A program made the translations under genes and the position numbers. Of a stretch of DNA of 64,000 nucleotides, positions 547 to 63,152 are shown piece after piece. Positions within the stretch are counted from its first letter, which is position 1. Each line of letters starts with the position of its first letter. The notes under the pieces were generated by a model that saw only the letters and a list, made by a program, of their open reading frames with translations, searched no databases and was not told where the DNA came from. The stretch comes from a virus. The stretch lies in IMG/VR virus record IMGVR_UViG_3300034072_000578, positions 44,413 through 108,412 of that record; one strand, written 5' to 3'.

Positions 547-622
547 GGGGAAGTAGCTCAGTTGGATAGAGCAAAGCCACTTTAGGGCTTGTGCGTTGGT
601 TCGAGTCCAACCTTCCCCACCA
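547..622 (+). tRNA. atypical tRNA, anticodon loop ACTTTAG (nominal Lys TTT; identity uncertain)
   Basis: Clean cloverleaf: GGGGAAG/CTTCCCC acceptor, AAGCC/GGCTT anticodon stem, TTCGAGT T-loop, CCA; has C instead of the invariant U33. Confidence 0.7.
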
Positions 623-1755: not shown

Positions 1756-1837
1756 CCCCTAGTAACAACGGCGGCTACGAACCGCTAGTAACGTAACTGG
1801 ATTGAAAATGCAGGTTCGAATCCTGTCTAGGGGTCCA
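1756..1837 (+). ncRNA. tRNA-like RNA with an Arg(ACG) anticodon arm but no D-arm
   Basis: CCCCTAG/CTAGGGG acceptor, 7-nt linker, GGCGG-CTACGAA-CCGCT, 23-nt extra region, GCAGG-TTCGAAT-CCTGT, CCA. Confidence 0.7.
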
Positions 1838-6614: not shown

Positions 6615-7175
6615 TTGTTAGATAAGTTAATTGAGGAAGGCCGAAAGTTCCCGGTCATCTACGCCGATCCGGCTTGGACATTCAAAACATACAGTGCCAA
6701 GGGTGAAGATAAATCCCCTTCGAAGCATTATAAAACAATGTCTATCGCAGACATTTGTGCGCTACCTGTTAAAGAGGTAGCTGCTAAAGACTCTATTCTT
6801 TTAATGTGGGTTTATCAGCCCCTTCTTCCAGAAGCGTTCGAAGTAATGGACGCTTGGGGCTTTGATTATAAGTCAATTGCTTTCGTTTGGGATAAGCTAA
6901 CCAAGCATGGCAAGAAACACATGTCCACCGGCTACTACACTAGGGCCGGTATGGAAATGGTTCTACTAGGGCGTCGAGGTAATCCGCCTAGAGTTAAAGA
7001 CCGTGGCGTTAGGCAGGTCTTCCAATCAACAGTAAGAGAGCATAGTCGTAAGCCTGATGAAGTCTATGACTTTATCGAGCGGCTTTATGACGGCCCTTAC
7101 CTAGAAATGTTCGCCCGCAATACCTACCGCAAGGATTGGACTAAGGTTGGCGACGAGGTAGGGAAGCTTGGCTAG
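6615..7175 (+). CDS. MT-A70 family N6-adenine methyltransferase
   Basis: IYADPAW catalytic motif, AWGF.Y, HSRKPDE, LEMFAR. Confidence 0.92.
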   Translation: MLDKLIEEGRKFPVIYADPAWTFKTYSAKGEDKSPSKHYKTMSIADICALPVKEVAAKDSILLMWVYQPLLPEAFEVMDAWGFDYKSIAFVWDKLTKHGKKHMSTGYYTRAGMEMVLLGRRGNPPRVKDRGVRQVFQSTVREHSRKPDEVYDFIERLYDGPYLEMFARNTYRKDWTKVGDEVGKLG

Positions 7176-7602
7176 CGCTCCAGTTCTGGAAGACCTTTGT
7201 AGGGAGCTTGCTAGAGAACTGCACCTTAAAGTCGACTCTTATGAAGATAAGCTAAACCAAGAAATCAACATAAGAGTTGTCGAGCAATACGCCTCTAGCA
7301 ACACCTACGGGTATCGCATCGATATGATGCGTGTAATGTTAAATGGTAGGGAGGAATATGAGCATTTCTTCCACCATATGCGTTCGGTAATTCTGGAAGC
7401 TCGAAAGAAAAGTGATCGATGCCTAGAGACAGGCAGAGTCGTATATCGATTTGAGCCAGAAAAGATTATCCCGGTATCATCCAGACCGGTCGATTGGGGT
7501 CAACGCCCACCGCCTAAGGCAGATAAGCTACCCGAACCACCACCCGACCCCAAATTAATTATGATGGAAAGAAAGCAACTCCATGAATACGGACGTTACT
7601 AA
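7168..7602 (+). CDS. hypothetical protein
   Basis: 144-aa ORF overlapping both neighbours. Confidence 0.5.
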   Translation: MASAPVLEDLCRELARELHLKVDSYEDKLNQEINIRVVEQYASSNTYGYRIDMMRVMLNGREEYEHFFHHMRSVILEARKKSDRCLETGRVVYRFEPEKIIPVSSRPVDWGQRPPPKADKLPEPPPDPKLIMMERKQLHEYGRY

Positions 7603-9085: not shown

Positions 9086-9162
9086 GCGCGTTTAGCTCAG
9101 TTGGTAGAGCAGTCGGCCCCTAATCCGACAGGCCACGGGTTCGATCCCTGTAACGCGCACCA
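9086..9162 (+). tRNA. atypical tRNA with 8-nt anticodon loop CCCCTAAT (Arg CCT or suppressor-like CTA)
   Basis: GCGCGTT/AACGCGC acceptor, GTCGG/CCGAC stem enclosing 8 nt, TTCGATC T-loop, CCA. Confidence 0.7.
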
Positions 9163-11278: not shown

Positions 11279-11878
11279 ATGACTCAGTTGAACGCCGAAA
11301 CGGCATCTGAATTCGATTTCGTTGCCCTGATCGACGCTTCGGGTTCGATGGGCAATCCGTCCGTCAAGATGCCGGGGAAGACCCGCTGGCAGGAAATGCA
11401 AGAGTCGCTGCTGGGCTTCATCCGCGCCATCGAACCGTTCGACGCTGACGGCATCGATGTCGGTGTGTTCGGCCCGAACTTCGAAGTCGAAGAAGGCGTT
11501 ACGTCCGCCACCATCGACAAGCTGTTCGCTTCGCGTGGTCCGCGTGGTTCGACCCCGCTGCATGATGCCATCGCGTGGACCATCGACAAGCAGAAGAAGA
11601 CCGGCAAGAAGACCTTCGCCGTCATCTTCACCGATGGCGAGCCGAACGATCAGGCGCTGGTCGCCAAGCTCATCACCGATGCTTCGAACAACATCGCGAA
11701 GGATGAAGACCTGACGTTCCTCTTCATCCAGATCGGCGACGACAAGGCGGCGCGGAACTATCTCGATCATCTGGACGACCAGTTGACCGGCAAGTTCGAC
11801 ATCGTGGACGTTGTGAGCGTCACCGAAGCGGACTCGATGGAACCGCTGGCCCTCATCAACAAGGCCATTGCCGACTAA
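11279..11878 (+). CDS. Ter-associated von Willebrand factor A domain protein
   Basis: MIDAS DASGSM, GSTPL, FTDGEP, FIQIGDD..A..YL..LDD. Confidence 0.88.
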   Translation: MTQLNAETASEFDFVALIDASGSMGNPSVKMPGKTRWQEMQESLLGFIRAIEPFDADGIDVGVFGPNFEVEEGVTSATIDKLFASRGPRGSTPLHDAIAWTIDKQKKTGKKTFAVIFTDGEPNDQALVAKLITDASNNIAKDEDLTFLFIQIGDDKAARNYLDHLDDQLTGKFDIVDVVSVTEADSMEPLALINKAIAD

Positions 11879-11989
11879 TCGCCGGCAATACATCACCAAC
11901 CTAGTTAGTTGGTATCGTTCTGAATAACCTTGGGGTAGTAGAAGTAGGAAGAAATGCTTCTACTACCCCTTTTAGTAGCGGGGTTTAAT

Positions 11990-12436
11990 ATGGGTTTCCT
12001 CGATAGCCTCAAAGGCATCGCCTCCAACTTCATGGCTGATGCTGAAAAGGCTCTTAGCCGCATGTCCGACAAGGCGACTTTCATTCGCACCGTCCAAGCT
12101 TCCTATCTGGTCGCTGCCGCTGATGGCAACGTATCGGATGAAGAGAAGGTGGTTCTTGGCCGCGTCATCGCCAAGAAACTTCCTTCCTTCAAGTCGTCGG
12201 AGGTTGCTAAGGCAATCGATGACTGCGCCGAAGAAATGTCCCTCTCTGCCGTAGCTGGTAAGGTTGCTCTTATGGAGAGCATCGAAAAGGCTGCTGGCAC
12301 TGATGGTGCAAAGGTCATCATGCTTGGCATGTTGGCCGTGGCCAATGCCGACAATGAGTTCCAACCCTCCGAACAGCAGGTGGCGCGGGCCATTTGCGTC
12401 AAGCTCGGTCTTCGCCCGCAGGAGTATGCGCTATAA
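11990..12436 (+). CDS. terB: TerB-family protein
   Basis: LVAAADGNVSDEEK and VANADNEFQPSE repeats. Confidence 0.8.
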   Translation: MGFLDSLKGIASNFMADAEKALSRMSDKATFIRTVQASYLVAAADGNVSDEEKVVLGRVIAKKLPSFKSSEVAKAIDDCAEEMSLSAVAGKVALMESIEKAAGTDGAKVIMLGMLAVANADNEFQPSEQQVARAICVKLGLRPQEYAL

Positions 12437-13035
12437 TGGAATGGTTACTTGCTAACCTGATGACGTTCGGTAGTATCGTTCTGCTGGACATCGTTCTCTC
12501 CGGTGATAACGCCGTTATTATCGGGGCAAAAGCCGCCAGCCTTCCCGCCGAACAGCGTAAGAAGGTCATCAAATACGGCATGTTCATGGCCGCAGGTTTC
12601 CGCATCGTTCTGCTGTTCCTCGCGACCTACCTGCTACAGATTCCCGGTATCCGACTCGCCGGTGGTCTTGCCCTGCTCTATGTGGCGTGGGGTATGTTCA
12701 AGGATATCAGGGACAATGGTATCGTTGATGGTAGCACGGAGAACGTAACGGCTGCTGCGAACTATCGTTCCGCACTCTTCGCCGTTGCTCTTGCCGATCT
12801 TTCGATGTCCATCGATAACATTCTTGCCGTTGCTGGTGCTGCCGGGGATCATTACTTCGCGCTCATCTTCGGTATCGTGTTGTCGATCTTCATCATGATC
12901 TTTGCTGCCAATGCGGTAGCGAGACTCATTGAGAAGTATCGTTGGCTGGCTTGGTTCGGCTTGCTGCTGGTCCTCTATATCGCGGGTCATCTGATCTATC
13001 AGGACGTTCCAGTCATCGTGTCTTGGACTTCCTAA
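12436..13035 (+). CDS. terC: TerC/YjbE-family membrane protein
   Basis: LDIVLSGDNAVII and ADLSMSIDNILAVAG, multiple TMs. Confidence 0.9.
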   Translation: MEWLLANLMTFGSIVLLDIVLSGDNAVIIGAKAASLPAEQRKKVIKYGMFMAAGFRIVLLFLATYLLQIPGIRLAGGLALLYVAWGMFKDIRDNGIVDGSTENVTAAANYRSALFAVALADLSMSIDNILAVAGAAGDHYFALIFGIVLSIFIMIFAANAVARLIEKYRWLAWFGLLLVLYIAGHLIYQDVPVIVSWTS

Positions 13036-13046
13036 TAAGCTAATAG

Positions 13047-13072
13047 AAACGGGGCTTAACGGCCCCGTTTTT
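13047..13072 (+). terminator. intrinsic terminator
   Basis: AAACGGGGC/GCCCCGTTT stem plus T-run. Confidence 0.8.
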
Positions 13073-13153
13073 ATTTGACCTTAATCAAATAATACTAGAT
13101 TAAATATAAGATCAGGGCCAAGAAAAAAAGTTTGGGCTTGGTGCATTTTTCTC

Positions 13154-13182
13154 TTGCACCGAATCGATTCGTCGCCTAGATA
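13154..13182 (+). promoter_or_regulatory. promoter of the large RNA operon, with two tandem GANTC sites
   Basis: TTGCAC-17-TAGATA with CGAATCGATTCG in the spacer; A/T-rich UP element. Confidence 0.7.
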
Positions 13183-13189
13183 GAGATCA

Positions 13190-14006
13190 CCGGCAAGGAA
13201 ACGAACCGGTCGCTGCTTGAAGCGGATAAGCTAGAGTAATCTGGTGAAAGGTTAGGAGCCAAACCAAGCCGCCTAGTAATAGGTCAACTTAAGCAACATG
13301 GAACTGACCGAAAGGTTCCTCTATACAAGTAGGGGATAGATTGAAGGATAAGGGTTTTAGGTCCGAAAGGATAACTAGCAGAGCTAATCGGTGAGCTAGT
13401 GAAGTCGCAAACACCTGCACCAAGCAAAACTTATTCGAAGTCGATAGTGAACCATAAGGGTAATAGTTCGACCATTAGCGTGGAAGAGCATTAGCCAGTT
13501 ACCAAAGGTGGAGACACTTTACGTAACCGTTGAGTAGCCCGCAAGGCGAAAGACATGAGGCGTGTGGCATGTTGTTCCCCAAAAGGGAATGATACCATTG
13601 GACAAGCACGTCTTAACTGGAAACAACTTAGCATAACGGTAATGCGATGGACTCTTAATCCATTGATTGTTGGTTCAAATCCAGCAGTTGATTCATCAAC
13701 GCAAAGCCTTGTCCAGCTATAAGTGAAAGGCACCTAAGCCCTACCTAGAGTGGGGGCATGAAGTCTCGCAAGGATGGATTGTTTGTAGTGGAAGAACTCA
13801 TTGCTCTTTAGCGGGAGCTTAATGGAGGTAAAACTTCAATGGGATTAAGATACTATGAGTAGCTTGTAGTGATATCGCAAATGCCAGCGATTAATAAAAT
13901 GGCGGTGTTGGTAGTTACTATGATACCTTGACCGGGTTATAGTGGAAAAGGCCCTAAACAATAAGGGGTTTAAGACTGCCCTTAGTAAGTGTATTCTCAG
14001 CTTGCT
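13190..14006 (+). ncRNA. GOLLD-like giant structured RNA
   Basis: About 800 nt without a credible ORF, many GNRA-capped hairpins, segment GTAACCGTTGAGTAGCCCGCAAGGC and 3' GTGTATTCTCAG that I recall from GOLLD RNAs, adjacent to tRNAs; boundaries approximate. Confidence 0.75.
13622..13693 (+). tRNA. trnK: tRNA-Lys(CTT) embedded in the GOLLD-like RNA, no encoded CCA
   Basis: CAACT/AGTTG acceptor core, ATGGA-CTCTTAA-TCCAT, GTTGG-TTCAAAT-CCAGC. Confidence 0.75.
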
Positions 14007-14016
14007 AATTACATAT

Positions 14017-14065
14017 GGGGATAATCGCGTAAAGTCATTGGTCTGACCGCTCGGTTTCCCCACCA
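14017..14065 (+). ncRNA. 49-nt minihelix-like RNA ending in ACCA
   Basis: GGGGA/TCCCC-A-CCA closing an irregular hairpin. Confidence 0.5.
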
Positions 14066-14066
14066 T

Positions 14067-14144
14067 GGCCTATGTAGCTCAGTCCGGTTAGAGCGTCCGA
14101 TAAATAAGGAAGGTCGTTGGTTCGAATCCAACCCTAAGGCCCCA
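14067..14144 (+). ncRNA. tRNA-like RNA with a shortened anticodon arm
   Basis: Canonical D-arm and T-arm, CCA; anticodon arm is TCC-GATAAATAA-GGA. Confidence 0.65.
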
Positions 14145-14145
14145 T

Positions 14146-14242
14146 AGCGCGGTAGTTTGAGTGTGCTTCTGGACAGAAGTATGCAGACAAAACAGCTTTC
14201 GGAGGATTGAAGACGGGGGTTTGAATCCCTCTCGCGCTTCCA
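14146..14242 (+). ncRNA. tRNA-like RNA with an expanded D-domain and no clear anticodon
   Basis: AGCGCGG/TCGCGCT-T-CCA, inserted hairpin GTGTGCTTCT-GGAC-AGAAGTATGC, T-loop TTTGAAT. Confidence 0.6.
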
Positions 14243-14244
14243 AC

Positions 14245-14354
14245 GGGACGGTAATTCAGCGGTAGAAGACGAAACCTTGTCTAAGCCCTTTGAGGGTGAT
14301 GGACCCCAAGACAAGGCCAGATAGTCGGAGGTTCGATCCCTCCCCGTCCCGCCA
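14245..14354 (+). ncRNA. tRNA-like RNA with a branched domain replacing the anticodon arm
   Basis: GGGACGG/CCGTCCC-G-CCA, D-like arm, CCTTGTCT/AGACAAGG helix enclosing a CCCT-TTG-AGGG hairpin, GGAGG-TTCGATC-CCTCC. Confidence 0.65.
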
Positions 14355-14570
14355 CTTAATAACATTGAAACATGATGGTCTGCACATTGTCATGTTTCAA
14401 CCTTGTTAAGTTTCACATTATCGGTGGGCTGAAATCCAGCGATAGAGGCAAGCCCCTAAGCAAGGCTCCTACGTGAACCTAATCCATAGTGTTAGGAGCG
14501 ATGATTTACGCTAGCTATGATTAGGGGAAGCTAGAAAGGTTATAGACCTGATAAACTTCCCCTTCTTAGT

Positions 14571-14647
14571 GGACCCTTAGCTCATTTGGTTAGAGCGACG
14601 GACTTTTAATCTGTAGGTGCTGGGTTCGAATCCCAGAGGGTCCACCA
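14571..14647 (+). tRNA. trnK: tRNA-Lys(TTT)
   Basis: Loop CTTTTAA, CCA. Confidence 0.93.
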
Positions 14648-14770
14648 CTTACTTAGTAGTGATAGAATACGGGTTGGTTCTTCAATTTGCTTTTGCCCAA
14701 AAGCTGTCGATCCGTATTCTTTCTTTATTAAGTGGGGTGTTATGTATTTTCTTACGTTATGACCTACCAA

Positions 14771-14854
14771 GCCCTCTTGGCGTAATTGGTAGGCGCAGCA
14801 GACTTAAAATCTGCCGGTTGATCCGTCTCGGTTCGAGTCCGAGAGAGGGCACCA
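14771..14854 (+). tRNA. trnL: tRNA-Leu(TAA)
   Basis: Loop CTTAAAA, variable arm, CCA. Confidence 0.93.
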
Positions 14855-15013
14855 AGTTTCAGAGCCAACTTCGCGGGCGTCTCCATCCGCGAGAAAACAC
14901 CTAGACATACCCTCTTGCATGTGGGTAGTTAATGGACGGTGGGGTAAAAGCCCTCAATATGCAGCGTTATATGACTGGCCTTCGGTGTCGCAACCTAGCC
15001 TTTCGACTAACCT

Positions 15014-15035
15014 AGGCCCTTCGGGGCCTTTTTTT
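15014..15035 (+). terminator. intrinsic terminator of the RNA operon
   Basis: AGGCCC-TTCG-GGGCCT followed by a T-run. Confidence 0.85.
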
Positions 15036-15048
15036 GGAGTCTTACTAA

Positions 15049-15588
15049 ATGGGTCTTTTGGGTAAGAAGAAGCAAGAGCTTCCCGTCAATGCCGGTGTCG
15101 AACTTGGCGACTACGTTAAGGACGTAGTTACCGGTTTTGAGGGCATTGCTTATGCTCGCGACTATCACCTTCACGGTTGCGACCGTATCGAGGTATCTCC
15201 GACCAGCTTGGATGATAACGGCAACCCCAAGGATGCTTTCGTTTTCGATATCCTGCGCCTGACGGTGATCGAAAAGGGGCGTATGGCTTGTATCGAGCCT
15301 AACGCCCACTTTAGCGCGTTCACCATGGGCGCGAAGGTCAAGGACACCATCACCGGCTTTGAAGGCATTATCGGCACCCGCACCGAAATCGTCACCGGCC
15401 TTACCCTCATCGGGATCATGCCGACTGTCCTTTCCAAGGAAGGCGCTCTCAAGGACGCTAAGGTCTTCCCGGCTGGCCGGGTGGAACTGATCGCGGAACA
15501 GCCTGTCCCGGTCGCTCCTGAGGCTCCAAAGGGCAAACCGGGCGGTCCTACCGAACGTCGCAGCGCTGCCAAGGCTCCGCCCCGCTAA
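15049..15588 (+). CDS. hypothetical protein with two internal repeats
   Basis: LGDYVKDVVTGFEGI and MGAKVKDTITGFEGI duplicated domain. Confidence 0.7.
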   Translation: MGLLGKKKQELPVNAGVELGDYVKDVVTGFEGIAYARDYHLHGCDRIEVSPTSLDDNGNPKDAFVFDILRLTVIEKGRMACIEPNAHFSAFTMGAKVKDTITGFEGIIGTRTEIVTGLTLIGIMPTVLSKEGALKDAKVFPAGRVELIAEQPVPVAPEAPKGKPGGPTERRSAAKAPPR

Positions 15589-17282: not shown

Positions 17283-17690
17283 ATGGAACTGCTATTAATT
17301 AACAAGCTAAGCCCATTAATCACTAAAAGAGATAAAAATAGAAAACCGGGTAGATACCGTTCCCTAGAATATAAATATATGATCGGGGAGAAGTCCAATC
17401 ACCGCTGCGTTCATTGCGGCGTTGATATGGTCTATGAAGGCCCACAAGTCCCTACCAGCTTCACCTATGAGCATGTCATTCCCATCTGCTACGGCTCTAC
17501 GTGGGAACTAGACAACCTTTATGGGGCCTGTCTGGAATGTAACCATCGCGGCGGCACACAAAGCGGTCAAGAGGCAACCCGACGCCTTTTGCTGGAACAC
17601 GGCATCTGCCTGTGCTACAACGAGGAATCGGATATCGCAAGAGCAGACGCGATGTATCGGCTTCATTTCGAGGACAGAATCGCGGCGTAG
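17283..17690 (+). CDS. HNH endonuclease (McrA-like)
   Basis: CVHC...TYEHVIP...G....DNL..ACLECN. Confidence 0.8.
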   Translation: MELLLINKLSPLITKRDKNRKPGRYRSLEYKYMIGEKSNHRCVHCGVDMVYEGPQVPTSFTYEHVIPICYGSTWELDNLYGACLECNHRGGTQSGQEATRRLLLEHGICLCYNEESDIARADAMYRLHFEDRIAA

Positions 17691-38698: not shown

Positions 38699-38785
38699 TG
38701 GTAGGGGTAATGGGACTCGAACCCATACGGCCTTTCGGCCACTGCATTTTGAGTGCAGCGCGTCTACCAGTTCCGCCATACCCCC
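38699..38785 (-). tRNA. trnL: tRNA-Leu(CAA)
   Basis: Loop CTCAAAA, GGCC-GAAA-GGCC variable arm, CCA. Confidence 0.93.
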
Positions 38786-39813: not shown

Positions 39814-40365
39814 TTAGACGATGAACCAGCCGTGACGAACACCCTTGAAGAATGCCTGTGCGTTCACTTCCGTATCGTAGTCCCCCTTATGGGCGAGTCG
39901 CGAATCATAATCAACGTCTAGTGCAAAGCATAGTTCTTCAAGTCTTGGCGACTTTCCTAAGTCGGTTGCGAACGTTCCTTCTACCATAGTATCGAACCAC
40001 TTAGTGTCAGGTAGTTCGAAACCGTTTCTTTCTGCTTCCATTTTAAGGAACGGGTAGTCAAACCCGCCCTCATAATCTGGACCGCCGCCGTTGTGGGCCA
40101 CGATTAAATGGCTTTCTTTCAGCACCTTAATGATTTGAGGGAAGCATTTCGCAATGACCGGCTTCGTCTTCAATTCATCGAGGGCGATGCCATGCACGGC
40201 AAAAGCCTTGGCGTCAATGTTACGCTCTGGGTTAAAACGTAGTAGTAAGTTCCTCTTCTCTTCCTCGGTATCTAAATCGAACTGCCGTAAAGACAGTTCG
40301 ATAATACGATGGTCAGGATGGAGCTTACCAGTGGTTTCTTCGTCTAAGAATGTTACTAAGCGCAT
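39814..40365 (-). CDS. DEDDh 3'-5' exonuclease (DnaQ-like)
   Basis: FLDEETTG, VHGI, VAHN..FD..FL, DT, AH...D. Confidence 0.9.
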   Translation of the reverse strand: MRLVTFLDEETTGKLHPDHRIIELSLRQFDLDTEEEKRNLLLRFNPERNIDAKAFAVHGIALDELKTKPVIAKCFPQIIKVLKESHLIVAHNGGGPDYEGGFDYPFLKMEAERNGFELPDTKWFDTMVEGTFATDLGKSPRLEELCFALDVDYDSRLAHKGDYDTEVNAQAFFKGVRHGWFIV

Positions 40366-40499: not shown

Positions 40500-41543
40500 C
40501 TATAGGGTGCATGTCGTTGATACCTTCTGTTTATACCAGATAGCAGCACGGGCGGCGACTACCTTGCTAAGTTCGTTCCAAGGAGTTTCATTCTCGGCCC
40601 GCTCAGTTTCGGACTCCTTAAATACGTCGGAGCATACCCACTTGATAAAGTTGGGCGTTTCCTTCATGCTGCGGATGGTCGATTCGTCTGCGAACGCCTG
40701 CCAGCCCTGTTCCATGCGCTGTTCAGTGCAGAATGCATCGGCGAAACGGTTCTTGTTCGCGAACTTCTCTGGATCGAAGTTAACAGCAGCCTTTGTCTTG
40801 TTGACTCGGTGATGCTCTGACTTCGCTTTGAAGTTGAAATGGCTGAAATGCTCTATCTCATTGCCAAGATATGCCACACCCGGTTTCGATCCTAGGAACG
40901 GGTAGCAAACGAATCCTTCGCCATGGCCTTCTACGTCGAAAAGCTCTTTGATGAAAGGGTCTACTAGACCGACTTCTTCGGTTGCTTTGTTAAGCGCACT
41001 TAGAGTCTTTTCAGTCTCAGTCTTGCTAACAAAGTCAATGGTGACGGTATCGTGCCATGGAATAACGATAACAGTGTCAGGAGCTTCTAGTCCTAGAACT
41101 GCCTCGATATGATCTGGACAAATAAGACGACAATATTCGCCGTTGTCCTTATGGCTGTCTAGAGCGAAAACAAAGAAGTGCTTGGTAGGAATGGAGCTAA
41201 CAGCTACATTCGATTGGACACCGGGACCAGCCCACTCGCCATAGACGATAATAGTAGCGTCCGACTTCGATAAGCCGCTGAAATAGCTCTCATTGGCTTC
41301 AACCCAAGCGCGGAAGCCTGCGTTATCGCTGTTACCGGGAATGTCGCTGGAGCGCTTCTGCGCTGTTACACGCCCATCGGGGTCTACCCTTACGGCAGCA
41401 TTTGTTCCGTGAAGTTTAATCTTTAAACCATATTTGATACGGTAATCGTTGGCTACAATTACCTGATGTAATCGGTTGTGACCTAACGACTTTACCACTT
41501 CATGGAAGGAATTGAGGTCATTCCATTTAACAAACTTACTCAT
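40500..41543 (-). CDS. RNA ligase, Rnl2-like
   Basis: KLHGTN motif I, YGEWAG.GVQ, FFVF, EGFV, FKAK. Confidence 0.8.
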   Translation of the reverse strand: MSKFVKWNDLNSFHEVVKSLGHNRLHQVIVANDYRIKYGLKIKLHGTNAAVRVDPDGRVTAQKRSSDIPGNSDNAGFRAWVEANESYFSGLSKSDATIIVYGEWAGPGVQSNVAVSSIPTKHFFVFALDSHKDNGEYCRLICPDHIEAVLGLEAPDTVIVIPWHDTVTIDFVSKTETEKTLSALNKATEEVGLVDPFIKELFDVEGHGEGFVCYPFLGSKPGVAYLGNEIEHFSHFNFKAKSEHHRVNKTKAAVNFDPEKFANKNRFADAFCTEQRMEQGWQAFADESTIRSMKETPNFIKWVCSDVFKESETERAENETPWNELSKVVAARAAIWYKQKVSTTCTL

Positions 41544-54559: not shown

Positions 54560-54789
54560 AGGGACTCAACCTCATCCGCGTTAGGGCTTGGTTCTGGGAT
54601 CGGTCGAACGTCGGTAACGTCAATCTCTTCCCATGATAGAACTGCGTAGCAACAGCCGTCAAAGATTTCGTCGGGCATATGCTCTTCGATTATTGCTAGC
54701 TGTTCTCCCCAATTTTCAGGGGCGCGTTCATATAGACCGATCACCCCATCATCACCGCTTTCTGTATTATATGTAATTAACACCGCCAT
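54556..54789 (-). CDS. hypothetical acidic protein
   Basis: Coupled ORF. Confidence 0.55.
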   Translation of the reverse strand: MAVLITYNTESGDDGVIGLYERAPENWGEQLAIIEEHMPDEIFDGCCYAVLSWEEIDVTDVRPIPEPSPNADEVESL

Positions 54790-55931
54790 ACTGGTAAGCT
54801 CAATTCCTCGAATAAGTTTTCTAAATCTGCTTCCTTATTGTAACGACGCTTTACAGCGTTCTTTAGCTCTTGGAAGCCGTCACCGCTCTTACGGGTAGCG
54901 AATAGAAGTCGCTGCGTTGCTGCGGGATAATGGTCTTGGATATGAAGGGCGAATTCCTTCTGTTCCATGTCTTTAGTTAAAGACAGGATATGACGCAACC
55001 CTTCATGGATCGAACTTAATCGAGTTAGTAGGCCCGCTCTATAATCCTCTAGTGCCTCTTGTAGTGCTGGCTCTACTTGCGGGATTACATCGTCCATCGT
55101 TTCATCGATTACTAGCTGGACTACTCCCTTGAAGCTCTCCGTGATTTCCTTGGATTTGTGCTTAAGGACGTAGATAGCTGACTTCATTTTAACCATTGCG
55201 CCAGTGTCGAAACGGACAATCGCCCCTTCCTTCTCATCGTCATGGCGAATAAGCTCTGCAAGGCCGTCTACAGGGGCGTTCCAAGCCGAATAGGACTGGA
55301 CCACCGGAAGATCATAGCGGCCCGCTAGAGCGGCCATAATGCCCATAGTCGTATATTCGCCAGTGTGGATATCGCGGATACCGGTCATGATAAGCTGTTC
55401 CTCTGCATATGGGATAACGATGCGGTTGTTTGGACCAACATACTCAAAAATGAAAGTCTTAGTAGGGTTGTCAAATACAAGCTCTGCTAACTTATGACCT
55501 AAGCCATTTCCATCAGGGGTCATCCTATCTACAAATGCTTCTGCCTGTAGTGCCTGCGGACTTAACCCCATTCGGGTCATTAACCGTAATTGACCCGATT
55601 CAGGGTCAACGCAAGTATGCACCATGCTACCATCTAGCTTATCTAGAATGACATGGGGATTGTTAAGATCAACATCAGCAGTGAAGTAACCAGCGCACTC
55701 GCCCAGATTGTGAAACTTATGGTAGGGTCGGGCAATGACATTCCCGGTTCTAGCGCAGAACTTAAAACCACGGCATTCCCTACTAAAATCATTAGTAAAA
55801 GTATCGCGGTGCATATAAACATAGTCGATTACCTTATACCACCCCTTATCAACTACGATAAAAGCGGGGTTGCCTTCGATATGAGGTAAGACTTCTTCAA
55901 TGTTGTTGATTAGGGGTGGATTGAACTTCAT
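54777..55931 (-). CDS. RNA ligase 1 (T4 Rnl1-like)
   Basis: ECRG..F, RPYHKFHN, KLDGS, FEY..P.NRIV..Y, EG...VK.K..Y. Confidence 0.92.
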   Translation of the reverse strand: MKFNPPLINNIEEVLPHIEGNPAFIVVDKGWYKVIDYVYMHRDTFTNDFSRECRGFKFCARTGNVIARPYHKFHNLGECAGYFTADVDLNNPHVILDKLDGSMVHTCVDPESGQLRLMTRMGLSPQALQAEAFVDRMTPDGNGLGHKLAELVFDNPTKTFIFEYVGPNNRIVIPYAEEQLIMTGIRDIHTGEYTTMGIMAALAGRYDLPVVQSYSAWNAPVDGLAELIRHDDEKEGAIVRFDTGAMVKMKSAIYVLKHKSKEITESFKGVVQLVIDETMDDVIPQVEPALQEALEDYRAGLLTRLSSIHEGLRHILSLTKDMEQKEFALHIQDHYPAATQRLLFATRKSGDGFQELKNAVKRRYNKEADLENLFEELSLPVWRC

Positions 55932-56772: not shown

Positions 56773-57080
56773 CCTTCGTATAATCGATTTTTGAACTGCC
56801 AGATTTCGTTACCGAAAATGCCAGTCATTAGTGCTTCATAGGCGTAGTGGTTATTGTCACTGTCCCACCATAGATAACCTTTATTCTGGTCGATCCATGC
56901 TGGCTCGCTGGTGAACATGTCGATCAAGCCTTCTGCAAGCTGATCGAAGATCAACACTTTCTCGATGTCCTTCTTAAGATAGACACTTTCTAGGTGCGGT
57001 TTAATTGCTTCGCAGAACTGACGGGAATTAATCTTCCCGTCTTTATAGTCCTGCCTAATATCCATTAGGTGATTATACAT
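56769..57080 (-). CDS. hypothetical protein
   Basis: Coupled ORF. Confidence 0.55.
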   Translation of the reverse strand: MYNHLMDIRQDYKDGKINSRQFCEAIKPHLESVYLKKDIEKVLIFDQLAEGLIDMFTSEPAWIDQNKGYLWWDSDNNHYAYEALMTGIFGNEIWQFKNRLYEG

Positions 57081-58486
57081 TAAGCTCTTACTAGCTCCCT
57101 GATTTGTTCCATGGTCTGCTCTCTTGCTAGAACGCCACGCATACGCTGTTTGTCGTAATAATAGACCGTTTCTAGCAGCCTAGTAGGATAGGTAGTTGCT
57201 AGGGTCCAATCTACGGTATGGACTTCGCCATCCTTACCAATTACGGTTTCTAGTTTACCGGCCTTTGACTTCTTGCCCGGATCGGTGATGGGGTCTTTGC
57301 GGATCGGAACCCAGCCATTGCTCTGGACAACGGCAGACGCCTTGAAAGCCCACTTCATGGTATCGCGGTTAACCTTCTGCATTAGACCGCCACCTGATCC
57401 TACGATAAGATTCTCTACCCCGTAACCAAGCCTAGGCATGATCGTAAGCACTTCTAGATAGTTGCTTTCATCGATACCATCACCCCAAAGTAGCTTTAGG
57501 TTATCGAAAACCCATAGCCCCTTATCATTCTTGTGACGGGGGAAGCCTTTCTCTAGAATGGAAATCATCTTAGGAATGACTTCGGTTGGTTCGCCGCTAT
57601 CTGGACGAATTACTAGGCTGACATTCTTCTCTTTCACTCGATCAGCGAGCTTATTCCAATAAGAACAAGCACGATAAATATCCCAAGCATCCGAGACAAC
57701 AGAAAGAACCGAACCATCGGGCGTTTCTTCAAGGATTTTACCAAAGCTTTCTTCTTCCCTTAGTTCCGACCAGCTACACATGACACTGTGTTCGGTTGCC
57801 GCTACTGAATAACCTGTTACCTGACCGCCATAATAATCATAGACGTAAGCGACACCAGCGACAGTATCAGTGCCAAGGAAGCTAGTGAGAAAGCCAGCAG
57901 TCCCGATTTCGCTTGCATCCTGCGATTCAACCCCGCGAGCGCTAAAATCAAGGAAAGAAAAATCTGCGTTAGCGCTACTATCAGCATAGCGAGCGTATAG
58001 AGCATCAATGTTCTTCCTGATCTGATAGACGCGGCTAGCAATCGTGGTAGGGAACCAGACAGCACGTAGAAGGGCGGTTTCGACATAACCTACTAAGCTG
58101 TATAGCCGCTTGTCAGTGCATTCCACCGTTACTACGGCATTCTTGTAAGGAAGCTTAAGCCCTTCCTTGACCGCTTTAATTGTTACTGGAATATAGCCAT
58201 AATATTCATCAACAACAATGTCCCAAGCAGAGCGATCAAACTTGATGCCCATAGCTGAAATGATGAAGTCGGCATAGTCAACGTCCTCTTTAGTAACTGG
58301 AGTTAGTAACTTTTCCTTGATGAAACCCTGTAGTCCAAAAAGGACTACAGTTTCATAGATGCCACCACGACTTTCAGCATAGGAAAAGATGCCGGTAACG
58401 TCGGGCGCATACATACGGGGCTGAGTGGTCTTGTAATAGTCGGTGTCAATAACACGCGACTTACGTAAAGCGGGCTTAATTACCAT
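57080..58486 (-). CDS. nadV: nicotinamide phosphoribosyltransferase
   Basis: DTD.YK, FGLQ, DF.ARG, SV.ATEHS, IRPDSG, GDG, GSGGGL, KDPITDPGKKSK.G. Confidence 0.95.
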   Translation of the reverse strand: MVIKPALRKSRVIDTDYYKTTQPRMYAPDVTGIFSYAESRGGIYETVVLFGLQGFIKEKLLTPVTKEDVDYADFIISAMGIKFDRSAWDIVVDEYYGYIPVTIKAVKEGLKLPYKNAVVTVECTDKRLYSLVGYVETALLRAVWFPTTIASRVYQIRKNIDALYARYADSSANADFSFLDFSARGVESQDASEIGTAGFLTSFLGTDTVAGVAYVYDYYGGQVTGYSVAATEHSVMCSWSELREEESFGKILEETPDGSVLSVVSDAWDIYRACSYWNKLADRVKEKNVSLVIRPDSGEPTEVIPKMISILEKGFPRHKNDKGLWVFDNLKLLWGDGIDESNYLEVLTIMPRLGYGVENLIVGSGGGLMQKVNRDTMKWAFKASAVVQSNGWVPIRKDPITDPGKKSKAGKLETVIGKDGEVHTVDWTLATTYPTRLLETVYYYDKQRMRGVLAREQTMEQIRELVRA

Positions 58487-58587
58487 CTTTAATCCTTATT
58501 TGCTTTTAACAGCGTCGGCTAACTTATTGATAGCTTCTGCGATGGCTAGAAGCGCTCTTGCGAGTTGGTCTACTTTAAAACCTTCCA

Positions 58588-59748
58588 TTAGTGTAACAGT
58601 CCTTCGGCTTCTGGTAGGTTTTCTACCATTGGTAGGATTTTAGCGATGATTGCGTAATGATCGCTAAAGAACAGTTTCTTGTTCTTGGCGATAAGATCAA
58701 TCGGCATCCAGAAAGCTTCGGTCAGGTCATCACCCGCCTTTACCTCTGGCGCTTCGTAGTCGTAGACGTTCCAGTGATGGACATGGGTTATCATGCGGCC
58801 ACGCATCGAACGGTTCGGAGCATCGAATACATACACCTTATCAAGGATGAAACGATCATCAACCTTTAGTGACGTTTCTTCTAGTAGCTCTCTTTTGGCG
58901 CTTTCTAGTAGGGTTTCTTCGACTTCTAGATAACCACCGGGAATTGCTAGTTTGCCTGCGCCTGCTGGACCTTTACGAACACCCACTAGGATATGGGGCC
59001 GCTTCCAACGGTCTTTCCAGACGCAAAGAGCATCTACAGCGACGAAATGAGGCGGGAAAGGTGCGACTTCCCACGACTTCTTATATTCGTCAATGAACTT
59101 CTTTTCTTTTGCTAGCTCTTCATATTCTGGAGTAGCGCGGAACTCAACGAGTCGCTTGAAGGTTGAAGTGGGGACACCAGTTACCCCGATCATTGGACCG
59201 GTGAAGAATTGATTACGGATTTCGGTAGCGTCGATATTCCATACAGCTTTGTGTAGGATTTTATCGTAGCGGACGCCGTTGATATATTCCTTGGTGGATT
59301 TGTCCTTATCGTAGGTATAGTAATAAGGCTTACTACCTACTTCGGCTTGACTCCAAGGGAAGTTCTTAACGATGGTCTTGCCTAATTCAGAATACCACTT
59401 ACCGTCCCGGTAAGTATAGTCTGCTAAACCGTCAATGATGATGCGGCCATTAGCGATATCTTCTGCGAACCAATCTTCGATCATTTGCTTGCGCTGTTCG
59501 TAGGTGAAGGGGTTCTTTAGCGACTGGCCTTCATCTGCGCTGCCAATGATGATGAGAACATTCTCCGCAACCTTTAGAGCGCCCTCGATCATGTCGATAT
59601 GGCCCAAATGGAGGGGCTGGAAGCGTCCTAGGAGGAAGGCCCGCTTATACAGATACTTGGGGGGTGCCCAAGTCGCTACGGAAGCTACAGCGCCCCAACC
59701 GAATGGCTGGGGCGTTGCTGCGATCTTGGGTAGATCAATCATGGTCAT
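58588..59748 (-). CDS. bifunctional NMN adenylyltransferase / Nudix ADP-ribose pyrophosphatase (NadM-Nudix, NatV-like)
   Basis: GRFQPLHLGH, NPFT..R, Nudix box PGG....ET....A.RELLEET, AGDD. Confidence 0.94.
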   Translation of the reverse strand: MTMIDLPKIAATPQPFGWGAVASVATWAPPKYLYKRAFLLGRFQPLHLGHIDMIEGALKVAENVLIIIGSADEGQSLKNPFTYEQRKQMIEDWFAEDIANGRIIIDGLADYTYRDGKWYSELGKTIVKNFPWSQAEVGSKPYYYTYDKDKSTKEYINGVRYDKILHKAVWNIDATEIRNQFFTGPMIGVTGVPTSTFKRLVEFRATPEYEELAKEKKFIDEYKKSWEVAPFPPHFVAVDALCVWKDRWKRPHILVGVRKGPAGAGKLAIPGGYLEVEETLLESAKRELLEETSLKVDDRFILDKVYVFDAPNRSMRGRMITHVHHWNVYDYEAPEVKAGDDLTEAFWMPIDLIAKNKKLFFSDHYAIIAKILPMVENLPEAEGLLH

Positions 59749-62195: not shown

Positions 62196-63152
62196 TTAAA
62201 TCTCTCTAATGTCGTTTACTGATACGTTCGGAAGACCATCGCCGTTAAGGATGGCTTTTAGGTTCGACTTCATGATGTTGTCGTGATACTCGATTAAGGT
62301 TTTGTCCTTAACGATGGTTTCATTACGCCAACCACCATGCGCAATCTTGGTCTGTAGAGGACGGTCGATTACGACGTAGCGAACCTTATATTCGGGCGGA
62401 AGCAACTTAGCTGCCTTAACCCTGTCCGCTGTCTTAACATGCGTGGCGTCAAGCACAACCGGTAGTCCCAACCTTAGTCTTTCTTTTGCTAGCTGGTGCA
62501 TAGCTTCGAAGACTCTTTCATTCTGCGATTGGTCCCTCATGTCGCCTGTTAGGGTTTCTCTTAGGACATCGCTTGAGATTACCATCTGCCCAAATGCTGG
62601 TAGAGCATTAATGAACTTGTTTAGGTAAGTGGTCTTACCCGCACCTGATGGGCCTACTAGGATGGTTAGTGGATGCTCAACTTCTGGATGGAAGTTATAC
62701 TGGTCTAGGAAAGTTTCTTTTGCGTCGCACTGTAGGACAAATAGCCCTTCCTTGCGCCACATATCGACAACCGACTGCCGGTCATCAAAGACCAACCAAG
62801 GCTCTCTGCCGTCCGCTCGCATCTGGTCGAGCATTTCACGCTTTACAACGTAATCGGCTCTCATATCGCCTGCTGGACGCATATACAGCTTGTCATACTT
62901 GACACCGTATTTAGCCATCCACTCTTCGGTATCTTTACGCTCGTTTTCGGAGCGACCGGAGCTTAGAACGATGTCGAAAGCTTTTGAGTGGGCTAGTAGA
63001 CCATTTAGGAATATGGTCTGTTCGATTGGCAGGTCATCTTTGCAACCTGCTAGAAACTTTTCCCAATTCTTAGGGAAGCTATTAACGTAGTGTAGACGAT
63101 GGTTTAAATCTGCTAACGTGCCGTCAATGTCGAAAATGATTGTTTTCTTCAC
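62196..63152 (-). CDS. polynucleotide 3'-phosphatase/5'-kinase with the phosphatase domain N-terminal
   Basis: DIDGTLA, SGR, LYMR..D.R.D..VK, FDDR..VV..WR; then GPSGAGKT, SSD..R, DAT. Confidence 0.88.
   Translation of the reverse strand: MKKTIIFDIDGTLADLNHRLHYVNSFPKNWEKFLAGCKDDLPIEQTIFLNGLLAHSKAFDIVLSSGRSENERKDTEEWMAKYGVKYDKLYMRPAGDMRADYVVKREMLDQMRADGREPWLVFDDRQSVVDMWRKEGLFVLQCDAKETFLDQYNFHPEVEHPLTILVGPSGAGKTTYLNKFINALPAFGQMVISSDVLRETLTGDMRDQSQNERVFEAMHQLAKERLRLGLPVVLDATHVKTADRVKAAKLLPPEYKVRYVVIDRPLQTKIAHGGWRNETIVKDKTLIEYHDNIMKSNLKAILNGDGLPNVSVNDIREI

What the first reader, a model, noticed from the sequence alone, without database searches (positions are those of the whole stretch)
14017..14354. 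Tandem array of four CCA-ended tRNA mimics without usable anticodons
Seen: directly after the GOLLD-like RNA, four units spaced by only 1-2 nt each end in an acceptor-type stem plus NCCA. They are a 49-nt minihelix (14017), a tRNA with a shrunken anticodon arm (14067), one with a long hairpin inserted in the D-domain (14146), and one with a branched domain in place of the anticodon arm (14245). The last three keep T-arms, and the inserts are well paired, so this does not look like random decay. Inference: a family of processed tRNA-scaffold RNAs. They could be decoys for CCA-end or elbow-recognising toxins and sensors, aminoacyl donors outside the ribosome, or natural tRNA-scaffolded aptamers, co-expressed with GOLLD as one RNA system.
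Basis: partly seen in the sequence, partly recalled or inferred. Interest (0 to 1): 0.85.

Follow-up and report, generated by a model that had tools for sequence, protein, structure and literature searches.

The report
Anticodon-less tRNA look-alikes after phage GOLLD
Right after a giant phage RNA (GOLLD) sit four small tRNA-derived genes that keep a tRNA's ends and CCA tail but cannot read codons; they are new examples of the "tRNA-like stable RNAs" known from phages T4 and T5, whose job is still unknown.

Summary
At 14017-14354, 13 nt after a bona fide GOLLD RNA (Rfam 183.6 bits), four modules each end in an acceptor-type stem plus NCCA and lie 1-2 nt apart. Units 2 and 4 pass the Rfam tRNA threshold on their acceptor, D and T arms alone. 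Unit 3 has a perfect acceptor stem and T arm. Unit 1 is a 49-nt hairpin with ACCA. None has a normal anticodon arm.

In this 108-kb phage, 25 of 26 tRNA genes encode CCA, so the units carry the mark of its free-standing tRNA genes.

One promoter (13154-13182) and one terminator (15014-15035) bracket GOLLD, the four units, tRNA-Lys and tRNA-Leu.

I found only one relative that covers the locus. It keeps a unit-4-like RNA (stems kept by compensating changes) with an unrelated insert, and has no GOLLD or units 1-3 there. So the frame is conserved, the insert is not, and the tie to GOLLD is not obligatory.

The closest known things are T5 RNAI/RNAIII/RNA1/RNA2/RNA3 and T4 species 1/2 RNAs. These too are tandem, partly CCA-ended and of unknown function; I checked them in the GenBank records.

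This scan has already noted anticodon-less tRNA-shaped phage RNAs in over 100 other genomes, though not these sequences. Processing and function remain untested.

The parts
13154..13182 (+). Sigma-70-type promoter TTGCAC-N17-TAGATA that drives the RNA operon
   Evidence: Read from the sequence. The same TTGACG-N17-TAGATA layout, followed by a 5' hairpin, stands after TerC in the relative (L125 about 6643-6672). The consensus scan did not flag it. It is an inferred promoter.
13190..14003 (+). GOLLD RNA (the 5' half is inferred; the conserved 3' domain is 13555-14003), with tRNA-Lys(CUU) embedded at 13622-13694
   Evidence: Rfam RF02032 183.6 bits, E 1.5e-51. ARAGORN and Rfam both call the embedded tRNA. 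It is the only one of the 26 tRNAs without an encoded CCA.
14004..14016 (+). AU-rich single-stranded linker (GCUAAUUACAUAU) between GOLLD and unit 1
   Evidence: A TAATTA-containing linker of 9-13 nt also precedes an ordinary tRNA in GOLLD loci L121 and L123/L124.
14017..14065 (+). Unit 1: 49-nt extended hairpin (minihelix-like) ending in ACCA
   Evidence: MFE -18.4 kcal/mol, z -2.9, 3 of 200 shuffles fold as well. It folds as an independent module in the 409-nt context fold. No Rfam match.
14067..14144 (+). Unit 2: tRNA-Lys-like body with a shrunken anticodon arm, an imperfect acceptor stem and a C-CCA end
   Evidence: Rfam tRNA 33.4 bits at 14068-14140. Among this phage's tRNAs it aligns best with the two tRNA-Lys(UUU) genes; the T arm is 17/18 identical to the one at 547-622. 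3-bp stem with 9-nt loop.
14146..14242 (+). Unit 3: perfect acceptor stem and T arm with a UCCA end; a long hairpin in the D-arm position; no 7-nt anticodon loop
   Evidence: Strict scan hit with 0 mismatches. Constrained fold. The T loop reads UUUGAAU, with U where C56 normally pairs with the D loop (read from the sequence).
14245..14354 (+). Unit 4: tRNA frame (acceptor, D arm with GG, T arm, G-CCA) carrying a 53-56-nt structured insert in place of the anticodon arm
   Evidence: Rfam tRNA 36.9 bits, with 53 nt in place of 17. Strict scan hit. Constrained fold. Frame conserved with compensating changes in L125:6801-6918 and L129:5591-5688.
14355..14410 (+). 23-bp hairpin directly after unit 4
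   Evidence: MFE -21.6 kcal/mol, z -5.05, 0 of 200 shuffles. No U tract follows, so it is not a typical terminator.
14571..14647 (+). Ordinary tRNA-Lys(UUU) in the same operon
   Evidence: ARAGORN; Rfam 68.8 bits.
14771..14854 (+). Ordinary tRNA-Leu(UAA) in the same operon
   Evidence: ARAGORN; Rfam 58.2 bits.
15014..15035 (+). Intrinsic terminator that closes the RNA operon
   Evidence: Terminator scan: 6-bp GC-rich stem followed by TTTTTTT. The only other terminator-like hit after the promoter (13645-13665) lies in the anticodon arm of the GOLLD-embedded tRNA.

Best explanation
The four units are tRNA-derived small RNA genes of the same kind as the 'tRNA-like stable RNAs' of phages T4 (species 1 and 2) and T5 (RNAI, RNAIII, RNA1, RNA2, RNA3).

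How they are probably made (inferred, not shown):
1. One transcript of about 1.85 kb starts near 13190 and ends at the terminator at 15014-15035. It carries GOLLD, units 1-4, tRNA-Lys and tRNA-Leu.
2. Host RNase P recognises each acceptor/T-stem stack together with its NCCA and cuts at the 5' end of each unit.
3. The cut before unit 1 also creates the 3' end of GOLLD.
4. The 1-2-nt trailers left after each CCA are trimmed by 3' exonucleases.
5. The products would be discrete RNAs of about 49, 77-78, 97 and 110 nt with CCA ends.

What they can and cannot do: the tRNA 'top half' (acceptor stem, T arm and, in units 2 and 4, the D/T elbow) is kept as a frame for processing and stability. The anticodon arm is shrunken (unit 2) or replaced by other folded RNA (units 3 and 4), so they cannot decode.

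Likely role (the weakest step): they engage proteins that read a tRNA's acceptor end or elbow rather than its anticodon, acting as sponges or decoys in the tRNA-centred conflict between phage and host.
For: Structure and chance:
- Rfam tRNA scores above threshold for units 2 and 4, carried by the frame alone.
- Perfect acceptor stem and T arm for units 3 and 4. The strict scan gives 23 hits against 0 in 200 shuffles.
- The units fold as separate modules in context.

CCA as the mark of free tRNA genes: 25 of 26 tRNAs encode CCA. The only exception is the tRNA embedded in GOLLD.

One operon: there is one promoter and one terminator, with no plausible internal terminator.

Unit 1 stands where other GOLLD loci have an ordinary tRNA, behind a TAATTA linker. 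RNase P is known to cut hairpin substrates such as pre-4.5S RNA and phage M3 RNA, to process dimeric T4 precursors, and to be affected by loss of the 3' CCA (PMC11143913).

Selection on the frame:
- The unit-4-like RNA of the relative, at the same place after TerC, keeps all 15 predicted pairs, 8 of them through changes on both sides.
- Its frame is 66% identical to unit 4, within the 52-76% range of true tRNA pairs of the two phages.
- G15-C48 in unit 4 corresponds to A15-U48 in the relative (read from the sequences).
- The relative also has a cloverleaf with a GCAA tetraloop in place of the anticodon loop and an ACCA end. That is hard to explain as decay.

Known analogues, checked in the records:
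- T5 has RNA1-RNAI-RNAIII-tRNA-His in tandem with 0-4-nt spacers. RNAI ends in GCCA and RNA3 in ACCA. They are annotated '(tRNA-like) stable RNA with unknown functions'.
- T4 has tRNA-Arg-rnaD-rnaC in tandem.

Context: the phage has 26 tRNAs, a PNKP-like kinase-phosphatase, an Rnl1-like ligase and an Rnl2-type ligase, so it invests in tRNA supply and repair.
Against: - No expression or end-mapping data could be obtained.
- Unit 2 looks partly decayed: two acceptor mismatches and an anticodon arm 2 nt shorter than normal.
- The folding z-scores of units 2-4 are unremarkable (-0.8 to -1.9).
- The inserts are not conserved and do not recur anywhere I could search.
- Only one relative covers the locus, so the covariation rests on three sequences that may be paralogues.
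- Nothing ties the units to any particular host protein. A decoy without an anticodon loop would not be expected to bind nucleases that recognise the anticodon loop, such as PrrC (from general knowledge).
Confidence: 0.5

Rival explanations
1. The units are debris of tRNA gene turnover. They would be duplicated phage tRNA genes (unit 2 from tRNA-Lys, unit 3 perhaps from the tRNA-Met-like gene at 462-539) that lost their anticodon arms through deletions and insertions. They may still be transcribed and perhaps trimmed, but they would have no function of their own.
For: - Unit 2 has two acceptor mismatches and an anticodon arm of 15 nt instead of 17, and it is closest to the phage's own tRNA-Lys genes.
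- The relative G100 has 11 Rfam tRNA matches but only 6 ARAGORN tRNAs, so this lineage holds many aberrant tRNA-like genes.
- The inserts are not conserved between relatives.
- Units 1-3 have no counterpart at the relative's locus.
- An HNH endonuclease gene lies nearby at 17283-17690. From general knowledge, such genes accompany tRNA cluster shuffling in T4 and T5.
Against: - Units 3 and 4 keep 7/7 acceptor pairs, 5/5 T-stem pairs and NCCA.
- The inserted parts are well-paired helices (8 bp; 5 + 8 bp), not random sequence.
- The unit-4 frame keeps its pairs through compensating changes, at a divergence equal to that of real tRNAs.
- A GNRA-capped 'anticodon' stem in the relative looks built rather than decayed.
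- Unit 1 is a clean hairpin with ACCA, not a broken cloverleaf.
Confidence: 0.22
2. The tRNA frame is only a carrier, and the inserts are the working parts. Units 3 and 4, and their counterparts in the relative, would be natural tRNA-scaffolded RNAs whose inserted domains bind a protein, a small molecule or another RNA. The frame would supply RNase P processing and nuclease resistance.
For: - A conserved frame with unrelated, well-folded inserts in unit 4, L125:6801-6918 and L129:5591-5688.
- Other agents of this scan report the same pattern for a large leucine-tRNA-framed phage RNA family. Those are unchecked notes, a lead only.
Against: - No insert matches any Rfam family or recurs in any sequence searched.
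- Units 1 and 2 carry no cargo.
- There is no covariation evidence for the insert structures.
Confidence: 0.13
3. The units are not cut off. They stay attached as a 3' tail of GOLLD, so that each protomer of the GOLLD cage carries tRNA-shaped appendages in addition to the embedded tRNA-Lys.
For: - GOLLD RNAs are known to carry covalently linked tRNAs in their linker and to form 14-mer cages (10.1101/2024.12.08.627333).
- The array begins only 13 nt after GOLLD, with no terminator between them.
Against: - The tRNA that is truly embedded in this GOLLD lacks CCA, whereas all four units have it, like the free-standing tRNA genes.
- Most GOLLD loci end in a terminator right after the conserved 3' hairpin (also phage BL57).
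- The relative has the unit-4-like RNA without GOLLD at that locus.
Confidence: 0.08
4. One or more units are unusual but working tRNAs: unit 2 reading with AAA in a 7-nt loop, unit 3 with CGG in a weak arm, or unit 4 with CUA after removal of an intron.
For: With thresholds relaxed and introns allowed, ARAGORN calls unit 2 tRNA-Phe(aaa), unit 3 tRNA-Cys(gca) with a 9-nt intron and unit 4 a CUA tRNA with a 27-nt intron. The phage has RNA ligases.
Against: - None is called at default thresholds.
- The proposed anticodon stems contain mismatches, or cut through an 8-bp continuous helix.
- From general knowledge, unmodified A34 and a pyrimidine at position 37 are abnormal, and no protein-dependent tRNA intron splicing of this type is known in bacteria or their phages.
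- No self-splicing intron family matched.
Confidence: 0.04

Closest known systems
Phage T5 stable RNAs RNAI, RNAIII, RNA1, RNA2, RNA3, RNAIV, RNA2H (GenBank AY543070 and AY692264, misc_RNA features)
   Same: - They lie inside the phage tRNA gene region, head to tail with each other and with tRNAs. RNA1-RNAI-RNAIII-tRNA-His have 0-4-nt spacers.
- They are 73-172 nt long.
- Several keep an acceptor-type stem and T arm (RNA1, RNA2), or a stem plus NCCA (RNAI ends in GCCA, RNA3 in ACCA).
- None has an anticodon arm.
- They are annotated as '(tRNA-like) stable RNA with unknown functions'.
   Different: - No sequence similarity to units 1-4.
- T5 RNA1 uses a leucine-tRNA-type D arm, which the units lack.
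- No GOLLD shows in the two T5 tRNA-region stretches fetched; T5 was not scanned for GOLLD.
- The T5 RNAs are annotated in GenBank as stable RNAs; the units here are predictions.
Phage T4 species 1 and species 2 RNAs (rnaC, rnaD; NC_000866 misc_RNA)
   Same: - Two small stable RNAs of unknown function in tandem directly after tRNA-Arg, with 1-nt and 6-nt spacers.
- rnaC has a canonical T arm (CCGGGUUCGAAUCCCGG).
- rnaD ends in ...GCGCACC, followed by A.
- T4, like this phage, also encodes Rnl1 and Pnk tRNA repair enzymes (general knowledge for T4; for this phage).
   Different: No sequence similarity. They are longer (119 and 139 nt). There are two rather than four. They are not next to a large structured RNA.
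tRNAs and pseudo-tRNAs in and beside GOLLD RNA (Rfam RF02032)
   Same: GOLLD is described as lying in or near tRNA islands and sometimes holding a tRNA or pseudo-tRNA in its linker (10.1101/2024.12.08.627333; PMC6582537). Here it holds tRNA-Lys(CUU) and is followed by tRNA-shaped units.
   Different: - The units lie outside the GOLLD model, encode CCA and lack anticodon arms.
- In the 22 other viral GOLLD loci plus phage BL57 that I read, GOLLD is followed by a terminator or by ordinary tRNAs. None has such an array.
Leucine-tRNA-framed anticodon-less phage RNA family
   Same: The same idea: a tRNA upper body kept, with the anticodon arm replaced by variable folded inserts, inside phage tRNA clusters.
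   Different: The leucine-type D arm (GGAANNGGTAGAC) occurs in the window only in the true tRNA-Leu(CAA) gene, plus one unrelated one-mismatch site at 40047. Units 2 and 4 have ordinary class-I D arms. They are therefore not members, only parallels.
mascRNA / MALAT1 3'-end processing (recalled from memory; Rfam RF01684)
   Same: It works like what I propose for unit 1: a tRNA-like element directly downstream of a long non-coding RNA is cut by RNase P. That cut makes the long RNA's 3' end and releases a small CCA-ended RNA.
   Different: It is a eukaryotic system with no homology. Rfam's mascRNA model does not match the units. Cleavage here is untested.

Membership tests
Canonical tRNA (Rfam RF00005) | Cloverleaf frame: 7-bp acceptor stem, D arm, T arm with the T-loop consensus | tested here: met
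   Met for units 2 and 4 (33.4 and 36.9 bits against a threshold of 29). Unit 3 meets the acceptor and T-arm part only. Unit 1 does not meet it (no Rfam match).
Canonical tRNA (Rfam RF00005) | Anticodon arm of 5 bp with a 7-nt loop that carries U33 and a purine at position 37 | tested here: not met
   - Unit 2: a 3-bp stem with a 9-nt loop.
- Unit 3: a 5-bp hairpin with a 6-nt loop.
- Unit 4: 53 nt in place of 17.
- Unit 1: no such arm at all.
Default ARAGORN calls none of them.
Phage tRNA-like stable RNAs (T4 species 1/2; T5 RNAI/III/1/2/3) | Encoded within the phage tRNA gene region, in tandem with tRNAs or each other, with spacers of a few nt | tested here: met
   Spacers of 1-2 nt. The units share an operon with tRNA-Lys and tRNA-Leu. 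The T4 and T5 layouts were checked.
Phage tRNA-like stable RNAs (T4 species 1/2; T5 RNAI/III/1/2/3) | Partial tRNA features (acceptor-type stem, often a T arm, often an NCCA end) without a decoding arm | tested here: met
   for the units; for the T5 and T4 RNAs.
Phage tRNA-like stable RNAs (T4 species 1/2; T5 RNAI/III/1/2/3) | Accumulate as discrete stable RNAs in infected cells, released by tRNA-processing enzymes | not testable with these tools
No cultured host or isolate is known.
Phage tRNA-like stable RNAs (T4 species 1/2; T5 RNAI/III/1/2/3) | Sequence homology to the T4 or T5 RNAs | tested here: not met
   A short-word BLAST of the unit parts against the fetched T5 and T4 loci (L219, L220) found nothing. 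The class is defined by kind, not by homology.
Leucine-tRNA-framed anticodon-less phage RNAs | Leucine-type D arm (GGAANNGGTAGAC-like) and upper body | tested here: not met
   The motif occurs only in the true tRNA-Leu(CAA) gene at 38762-38774, plus one unrelated one-mismatch site at 40047.
GOLLD RNA (RF02032) | Covered by the GOLLD covariance model | tested here: not met
   The model match ends at 14003. The units lie outside it.
tmRNA (one-piece or two-piece) | tRNA-like domain together with a tag reading frame and pseudoknots | tested here: not met
   ARAGORN finds no tmRNA, even with relaxed thresholds. Rfam tmRNA scores 7.1 bits, E = 4.
YrlA / bacterial Y RNA-like | tRNA-like module joined to a Ro-binding helix; match to Rfam RF02553 | tested here: not met
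   No match in 13050-15050 at E up to 10. The only weak hit is elsewhere: 23.3 bits at 496-597.

The most novel reading that the evidence does not exclude
The promoter-to-terminator block 13154-15035 may be a dedicated RNA-only counter-defence operon. In this reading, RNase P releases CCA-ended mimics derived from tRNA-Lys and other tRNAs next to the GOLLD cage. The mimics would titrate host effectors that recognise a tRNA's acceptor end or elbow.

One specific version: unit 2 is a tRNA-Lys body whose loop, AUAAAUA, carries AAA, which is complementary to the UUU anticodon. It could mask tRNA-Lys(UUU) from anticodon nucleases.

This would fit a phage that also carries two tRNA-Lys(UUU) genes, a GOLLD-embedded tRNA-Lys(CUU), PNKP and Rnl1.
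Probability: 0.08. Interest if true: 0.85.

Novelty: new variant of a known kind. Interest (0 to 1): 0.45.

Why it matters
Small tRNA-like stable RNAs have been known in T4 and T5 for about fifty years, and no function has been found for them. GOLLD has a solved cage structure but no known job either.

This locus puts both in one compact, protein-free operon. That gives a simple set of testable predictions:
- four RNase P cuts;
- a GOLLD 3' end made by the first of those cuts;
- four CCA-ended products.

The comparison with the one relative suggests a conserved tRNA frame with an exchangeable middle. This points to a general way in which phages could build stable small RNAs.

The value is as a clean test case, not as a new class.

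Tried and rejected
Homologue searches that gave nothing usable for covariation of the inserts:
- blastn of 13100-14900 against 50,697 phage genomes hit only ordinary tRNAs and one GOLLD piece.
- The plasmid collection gave only a tRNA-like hit to unit 2.
- The flanking protein at 15049-15588 has no relatives in viral contigs.
- TerC gave one relative in viral contigs and none in metagenome contigs.
- A 35-base degenerate pattern for the unit-4 frame plus a long insert found only that same relative in viral contigs.
- A looser pattern in metagenomes found 20 stretches. All were unrelated tRNA-cluster elements or pattern artefacts, with almost no protein similarity to this phage.

Relatives found by terminase:
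- Cultured relatives (Rhizobium phages B1VFA, RHph_X66, RHph_Y2_11, RHEph10; Pseudomonas phage hairong) have no GOLLD and only 0-4 tRNAs.
- 40 uncultured relatives have 0-4 ordinary tRNAs and no tRNA matches longer than 86 nt.
- The three next-closest contigs do not reach the locus.

Ideas considered and dropped:
- tmRNA, Y RNA-like, small ribozymes and riboswitches: no Rfam match.
- attP-type tRNA 3' fragments: each unit has both acceptor strands.
- tRNA introns: the ARAGORN intron calls cut through continuous helices.
- AlaRS-type G3:U70 identity: absent in all four units (read from the sequence).
- Repeats of the inserts elsewhere in the genome: none.
Full report
**What is there**

The window is the last 64 kb of a 108,412-bp IMG/VR virus record with direct terminal repeats. 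Rfam places a GOLLD RNA at 13555-14003 (183.6 bits against a threshold of 150). A tRNA-Lys(CUU) is embedded in it at 13622-13694.

After a 13-nt AU-rich linker come four modules. Each ends in a stem plus NCCA, and they are separated by 1-2 nt.

- **Unit 1 (14017-14065)** is a 49-nt extended hairpin ending in ACCA (MFE -18.4 kcal/mol, z -2.9).
- **Unit 2 (14067/14068-14144)** scores 33.4 bits on the Rfam tRNA model.
  - The D and T arms are intact.
  - The anticodon arm is only a 3-bp stem with a 9-nt loop.
  - The acceptor stem has two mismatches.
- **Unit 3 (14146-14242)** has a 7/7 acceptor stem, a 5/5 T stem and a UCCA end.
  - A 35-nt hairpin stands in the D-arm position.
  - Only a 5-bp hairpin with a 6-nt loop stands where the anticodon arm should be.
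- **Unit 4 (14245-14354)** scores 36.9 bits. It has 53 nt where the model expects the 17-nt anticodon arm, including an 8-bp helix.

Default ARAGORN calls none of the four. With relaxed thresholds and introns allowed it makes forced calls. Those calls cut through continuous helices.

**More than chance**

A strict scan required a 7/7 acceptor stem, a 5/5 T stem with G53-C61, the T-loop consensus and NCCA. It gives 23 hits in the window and none in 200 shuffles. The hits are the real tRNAs, units 3 and 4, and a fifth tRNA-like at 1756-1837.

25 of the phage's 26 tRNA genes encode CCA. The exception is the tRNA inside GOLLD. Encoded CCA is therefore the mark of this phage's free-standing tRNA genes, and all four units carry it.

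In a 409-nt context fold, units 1, 2 and 4 fold as separate modules.

**Transcription unit**

- TerC ends at 13035 and is followed by a hairpin and a T-run.
- A TTGCAC-N17-TAGATA promoter lies at 13154-13182 (read).
- The only convincing terminator after that promoter is at 15014-15035. The other hit of that scan, at 13645-13665, lies in the anticodon arm of the GOLLD-embedded tRNA.
- Between promoter and terminator lie:
  - GOLLD and the four units;
  - a 23-bp hairpin (14355-14410, z -5.05);
  - about 160 nt of further folded RNA;
  - tRNA-Lys(UUU);
  - another long hairpin (z -6.2);
  - tRNA-Leu(UAA).

Co-transcription is inferred from this layout. It has not been shown.

**Relatives**

By terminase the phage is 50-55% identical to Rhizobium phages B1VFA and RHEph10, Pseudomonas phage hairong and Salmonella phage SSU5. 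The cultured relatives I checked (SSU5 was not checked) have no GOLLD and 0-4 tRNAs. Forty uncultured relatives likewise have 0-4 ordinary tRNAs.

Only one close relative reaches the locus: IMGVR_UViG_3300034069_000130, here called G100 (terminase 86% identical, TerC 66%). After its TerC it has the same type of promoter and 5' hairpin. A 118-nt tRNA-shaped RNA with a G-CCA end follows (L125:6801-6918; Rfam tRNA 45 bits). After that come large hairpins. It has no GOLLD and no counterparts of units 1-3 there. No GOLLD was found in the 58% of that genome that is held.

Unit 4, this RNA and a third one (L129:5591-5688) align only in the tRNA frame.
- All 15 frame pairs are kept, 8 of them through changes on both sides.
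- The inserts cannot be aligned.
- The frame identity of 66% is in the range of true tRNA pairs of the two phages, 52-76%.

G100 holds further mimics. One is a cloverleaf whose anticodon loop is replaced by a GCAA tetraloop, with an ACCA end (L129:4726-4799, z -3.07). The G100 unit-4-like RNA has the same acceptor and D stems as the window's tRNA-Lys(UUU) at 547-622. Unit 2 is also closest to the phage's tRNA-Lys genes. At least some of these RNAs therefore come from duplicated phage tRNA genes.

**GOLLD context**

I collected 22 GOLLD loci from viral contigs and read them alongside Caulobacter phage BL57.
- In most of them the conserved 3' hairpin is followed by a terminator.
- In three or four lineages an ordinary tRNA follows after a short linker that contains TAATTA.
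- In the window, unit 1 stands in exactly that place.
- None of these loci has an array like this one.
- One locus (L121) has what looks like a leucine-tRNA-shaped RNA with a large insert further downstream (read, not followed up).

That GOLLD lies near tRNA islands and can hold a tRNA or pseudo-tRNA is already published.

**Known analogues**

- The T5 record AY543070 annotates RNA1, RNAI and RNAIII in tandem, directly before tRNA-His.
- It also annotates RNA2, RNA3, RNAIV and RNA2H. All seven are labelled '(tRNA-like) stable RNA with unknown functions' or 'putative tRNA-like RNA'.
- RNAI ends in GCCA and RNA3 in ACCA. RNA1 and RNA2 have T arms.
- T4 has species 2 and species 1 RNAs in tandem after tRNA-Arg.

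The units here show no sequence similarity to any of these. They also lack the leucine-type D arm of the large family that other agents of this scan describe.

**How it most likely works**

RNase P cuts hairpin substrates and processes multimeric phage tRNA precursors, and its action is affected by the 3' CCA (PMC11143913). By analogy with this and with the T4 and T5 RNAs, I infer the following:
1. RNase P cuts at the 5' end of each unit.
2. The cut before unit 1 makes the 3' end of GOLLD.
3. Exonucleases trim the 1-2-nt trailers back to CCA.

The products would be four stable small RNAs that cannot decode.

The role is the weak step. The phage carries 26 tRNAs, a PNKP-like enzyme, an Rnl1-like ligase and an Rnl2-type ligase. 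It therefore appears invested in tRNA supply and repair. A sponge or decoy role towards proteins that read the acceptor end or elbow is the reading I favour, but nothing here tests it.

The main rival is neutral debris of tRNA gene turnover. That fits unit 2 best and units 3 and 4 worst.

**Verdict**

The thing is a new variant of a known kind whose function has never been found. Its tie to GOLLD is one of layout, not an obligatory one.

Noticed in passing
window 1756-1837 (+): A fifth anticodon-less tRNA-like gene. It has a 7/7 acceptor stem, a canonical T arm (UUCGAAU) and a UCCA end, but an irregular D/anticodon region. Rfam tRNA scores 27.4 bits, just under threshold. ARAGORN finds nothing even with relaxed thresholds. 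It lies 9 nt before tRNA-Ile.
   Followed up: partly
window 9086-9162 (+): A tRNA with an 8-nt anticodon loop, CCCCUAAU (ARAGORN reports the anticodon as 'ccta'; Rfam 57.3 bits). It could read amber or a four-base codon. It lies just upstream of a small operon that another first-reader note of this scan reads as Pth2-like; Pfam gave no match for that ORF here.
   Followed up: no
window 547-622 (+): This tRNA-Lys(UUU) has C instead of the near-universal U at position 33 (loop ACUUUAG). The second tRNA-Lys(UUU), at 14571-14647, has the normal loop CUUUUAA.
   Followed up: no
window 62196-63152 (-), 54777-55931 (-), 40500-41543 (-): A tRNA/RNA repair gene set: a PNKP-like kinase-phosphatase (HAD_PNKP plus a P-loop kinase domain), a T4 Rnl1-type RNA ligase and a second, Rnl2-type RNA ligase.
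   Followed up: partly
window 11279-13035 (+): A tellurite-resistance-type gene cluster (vWA, TerB, TerC) lies directly upstream of the RNA operon. NAMPT and NMNAT-Nudix genes for NAD salvage lie at 57080-59748.
   Followed up: no
window 14355-14410 and 14650-14734 (+): Two long, nearly perfect hairpins (z -5.05 and -6.2) flank the ordinary tRNAs of the operon. The relative has three even larger ones after its unit-4-like RNA (L125 about 6930-7372). They may be RNase III-type processing sites.
   Followed up: no
L129:4726-4799 (relative G100): A cloverleaf-shaped RNA with an ACCA end. Its anticodon loop is replaced by a GCAA tetraloop on a 4-bp stem, and its T loop is non-canonical (z -3.07). 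Neither Rfam nor ARAGORN detects it.
   Followed up: partly
L121 (the strand that carries GOLLD), about 180-350 nt after the GOLLD 3' hairpin: A tRNA-Leu-shaped element (D arm GCGGAAUAGGUAGACGC, acceptor GUGUUUG/CAAGCAC) with an insert of about 110 nt in place of the anticodon arm. It lies in an unrelated viral contig whose GOLLD is followed directly by tRNA-Leu.
   Followed up: no
window 13160-13171 and other promoters: The promoter spacer of the RNA operon contains the palindrome CGAATCGATTCG, which holds GANTC sites. The relative's promoter has CGAATCGATC. Together with the GOLLD match to Caulobacter phage BL57 and the Rhizobium phage relatives, this hints at an alphaproteobacterial host.
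   Followed up: no
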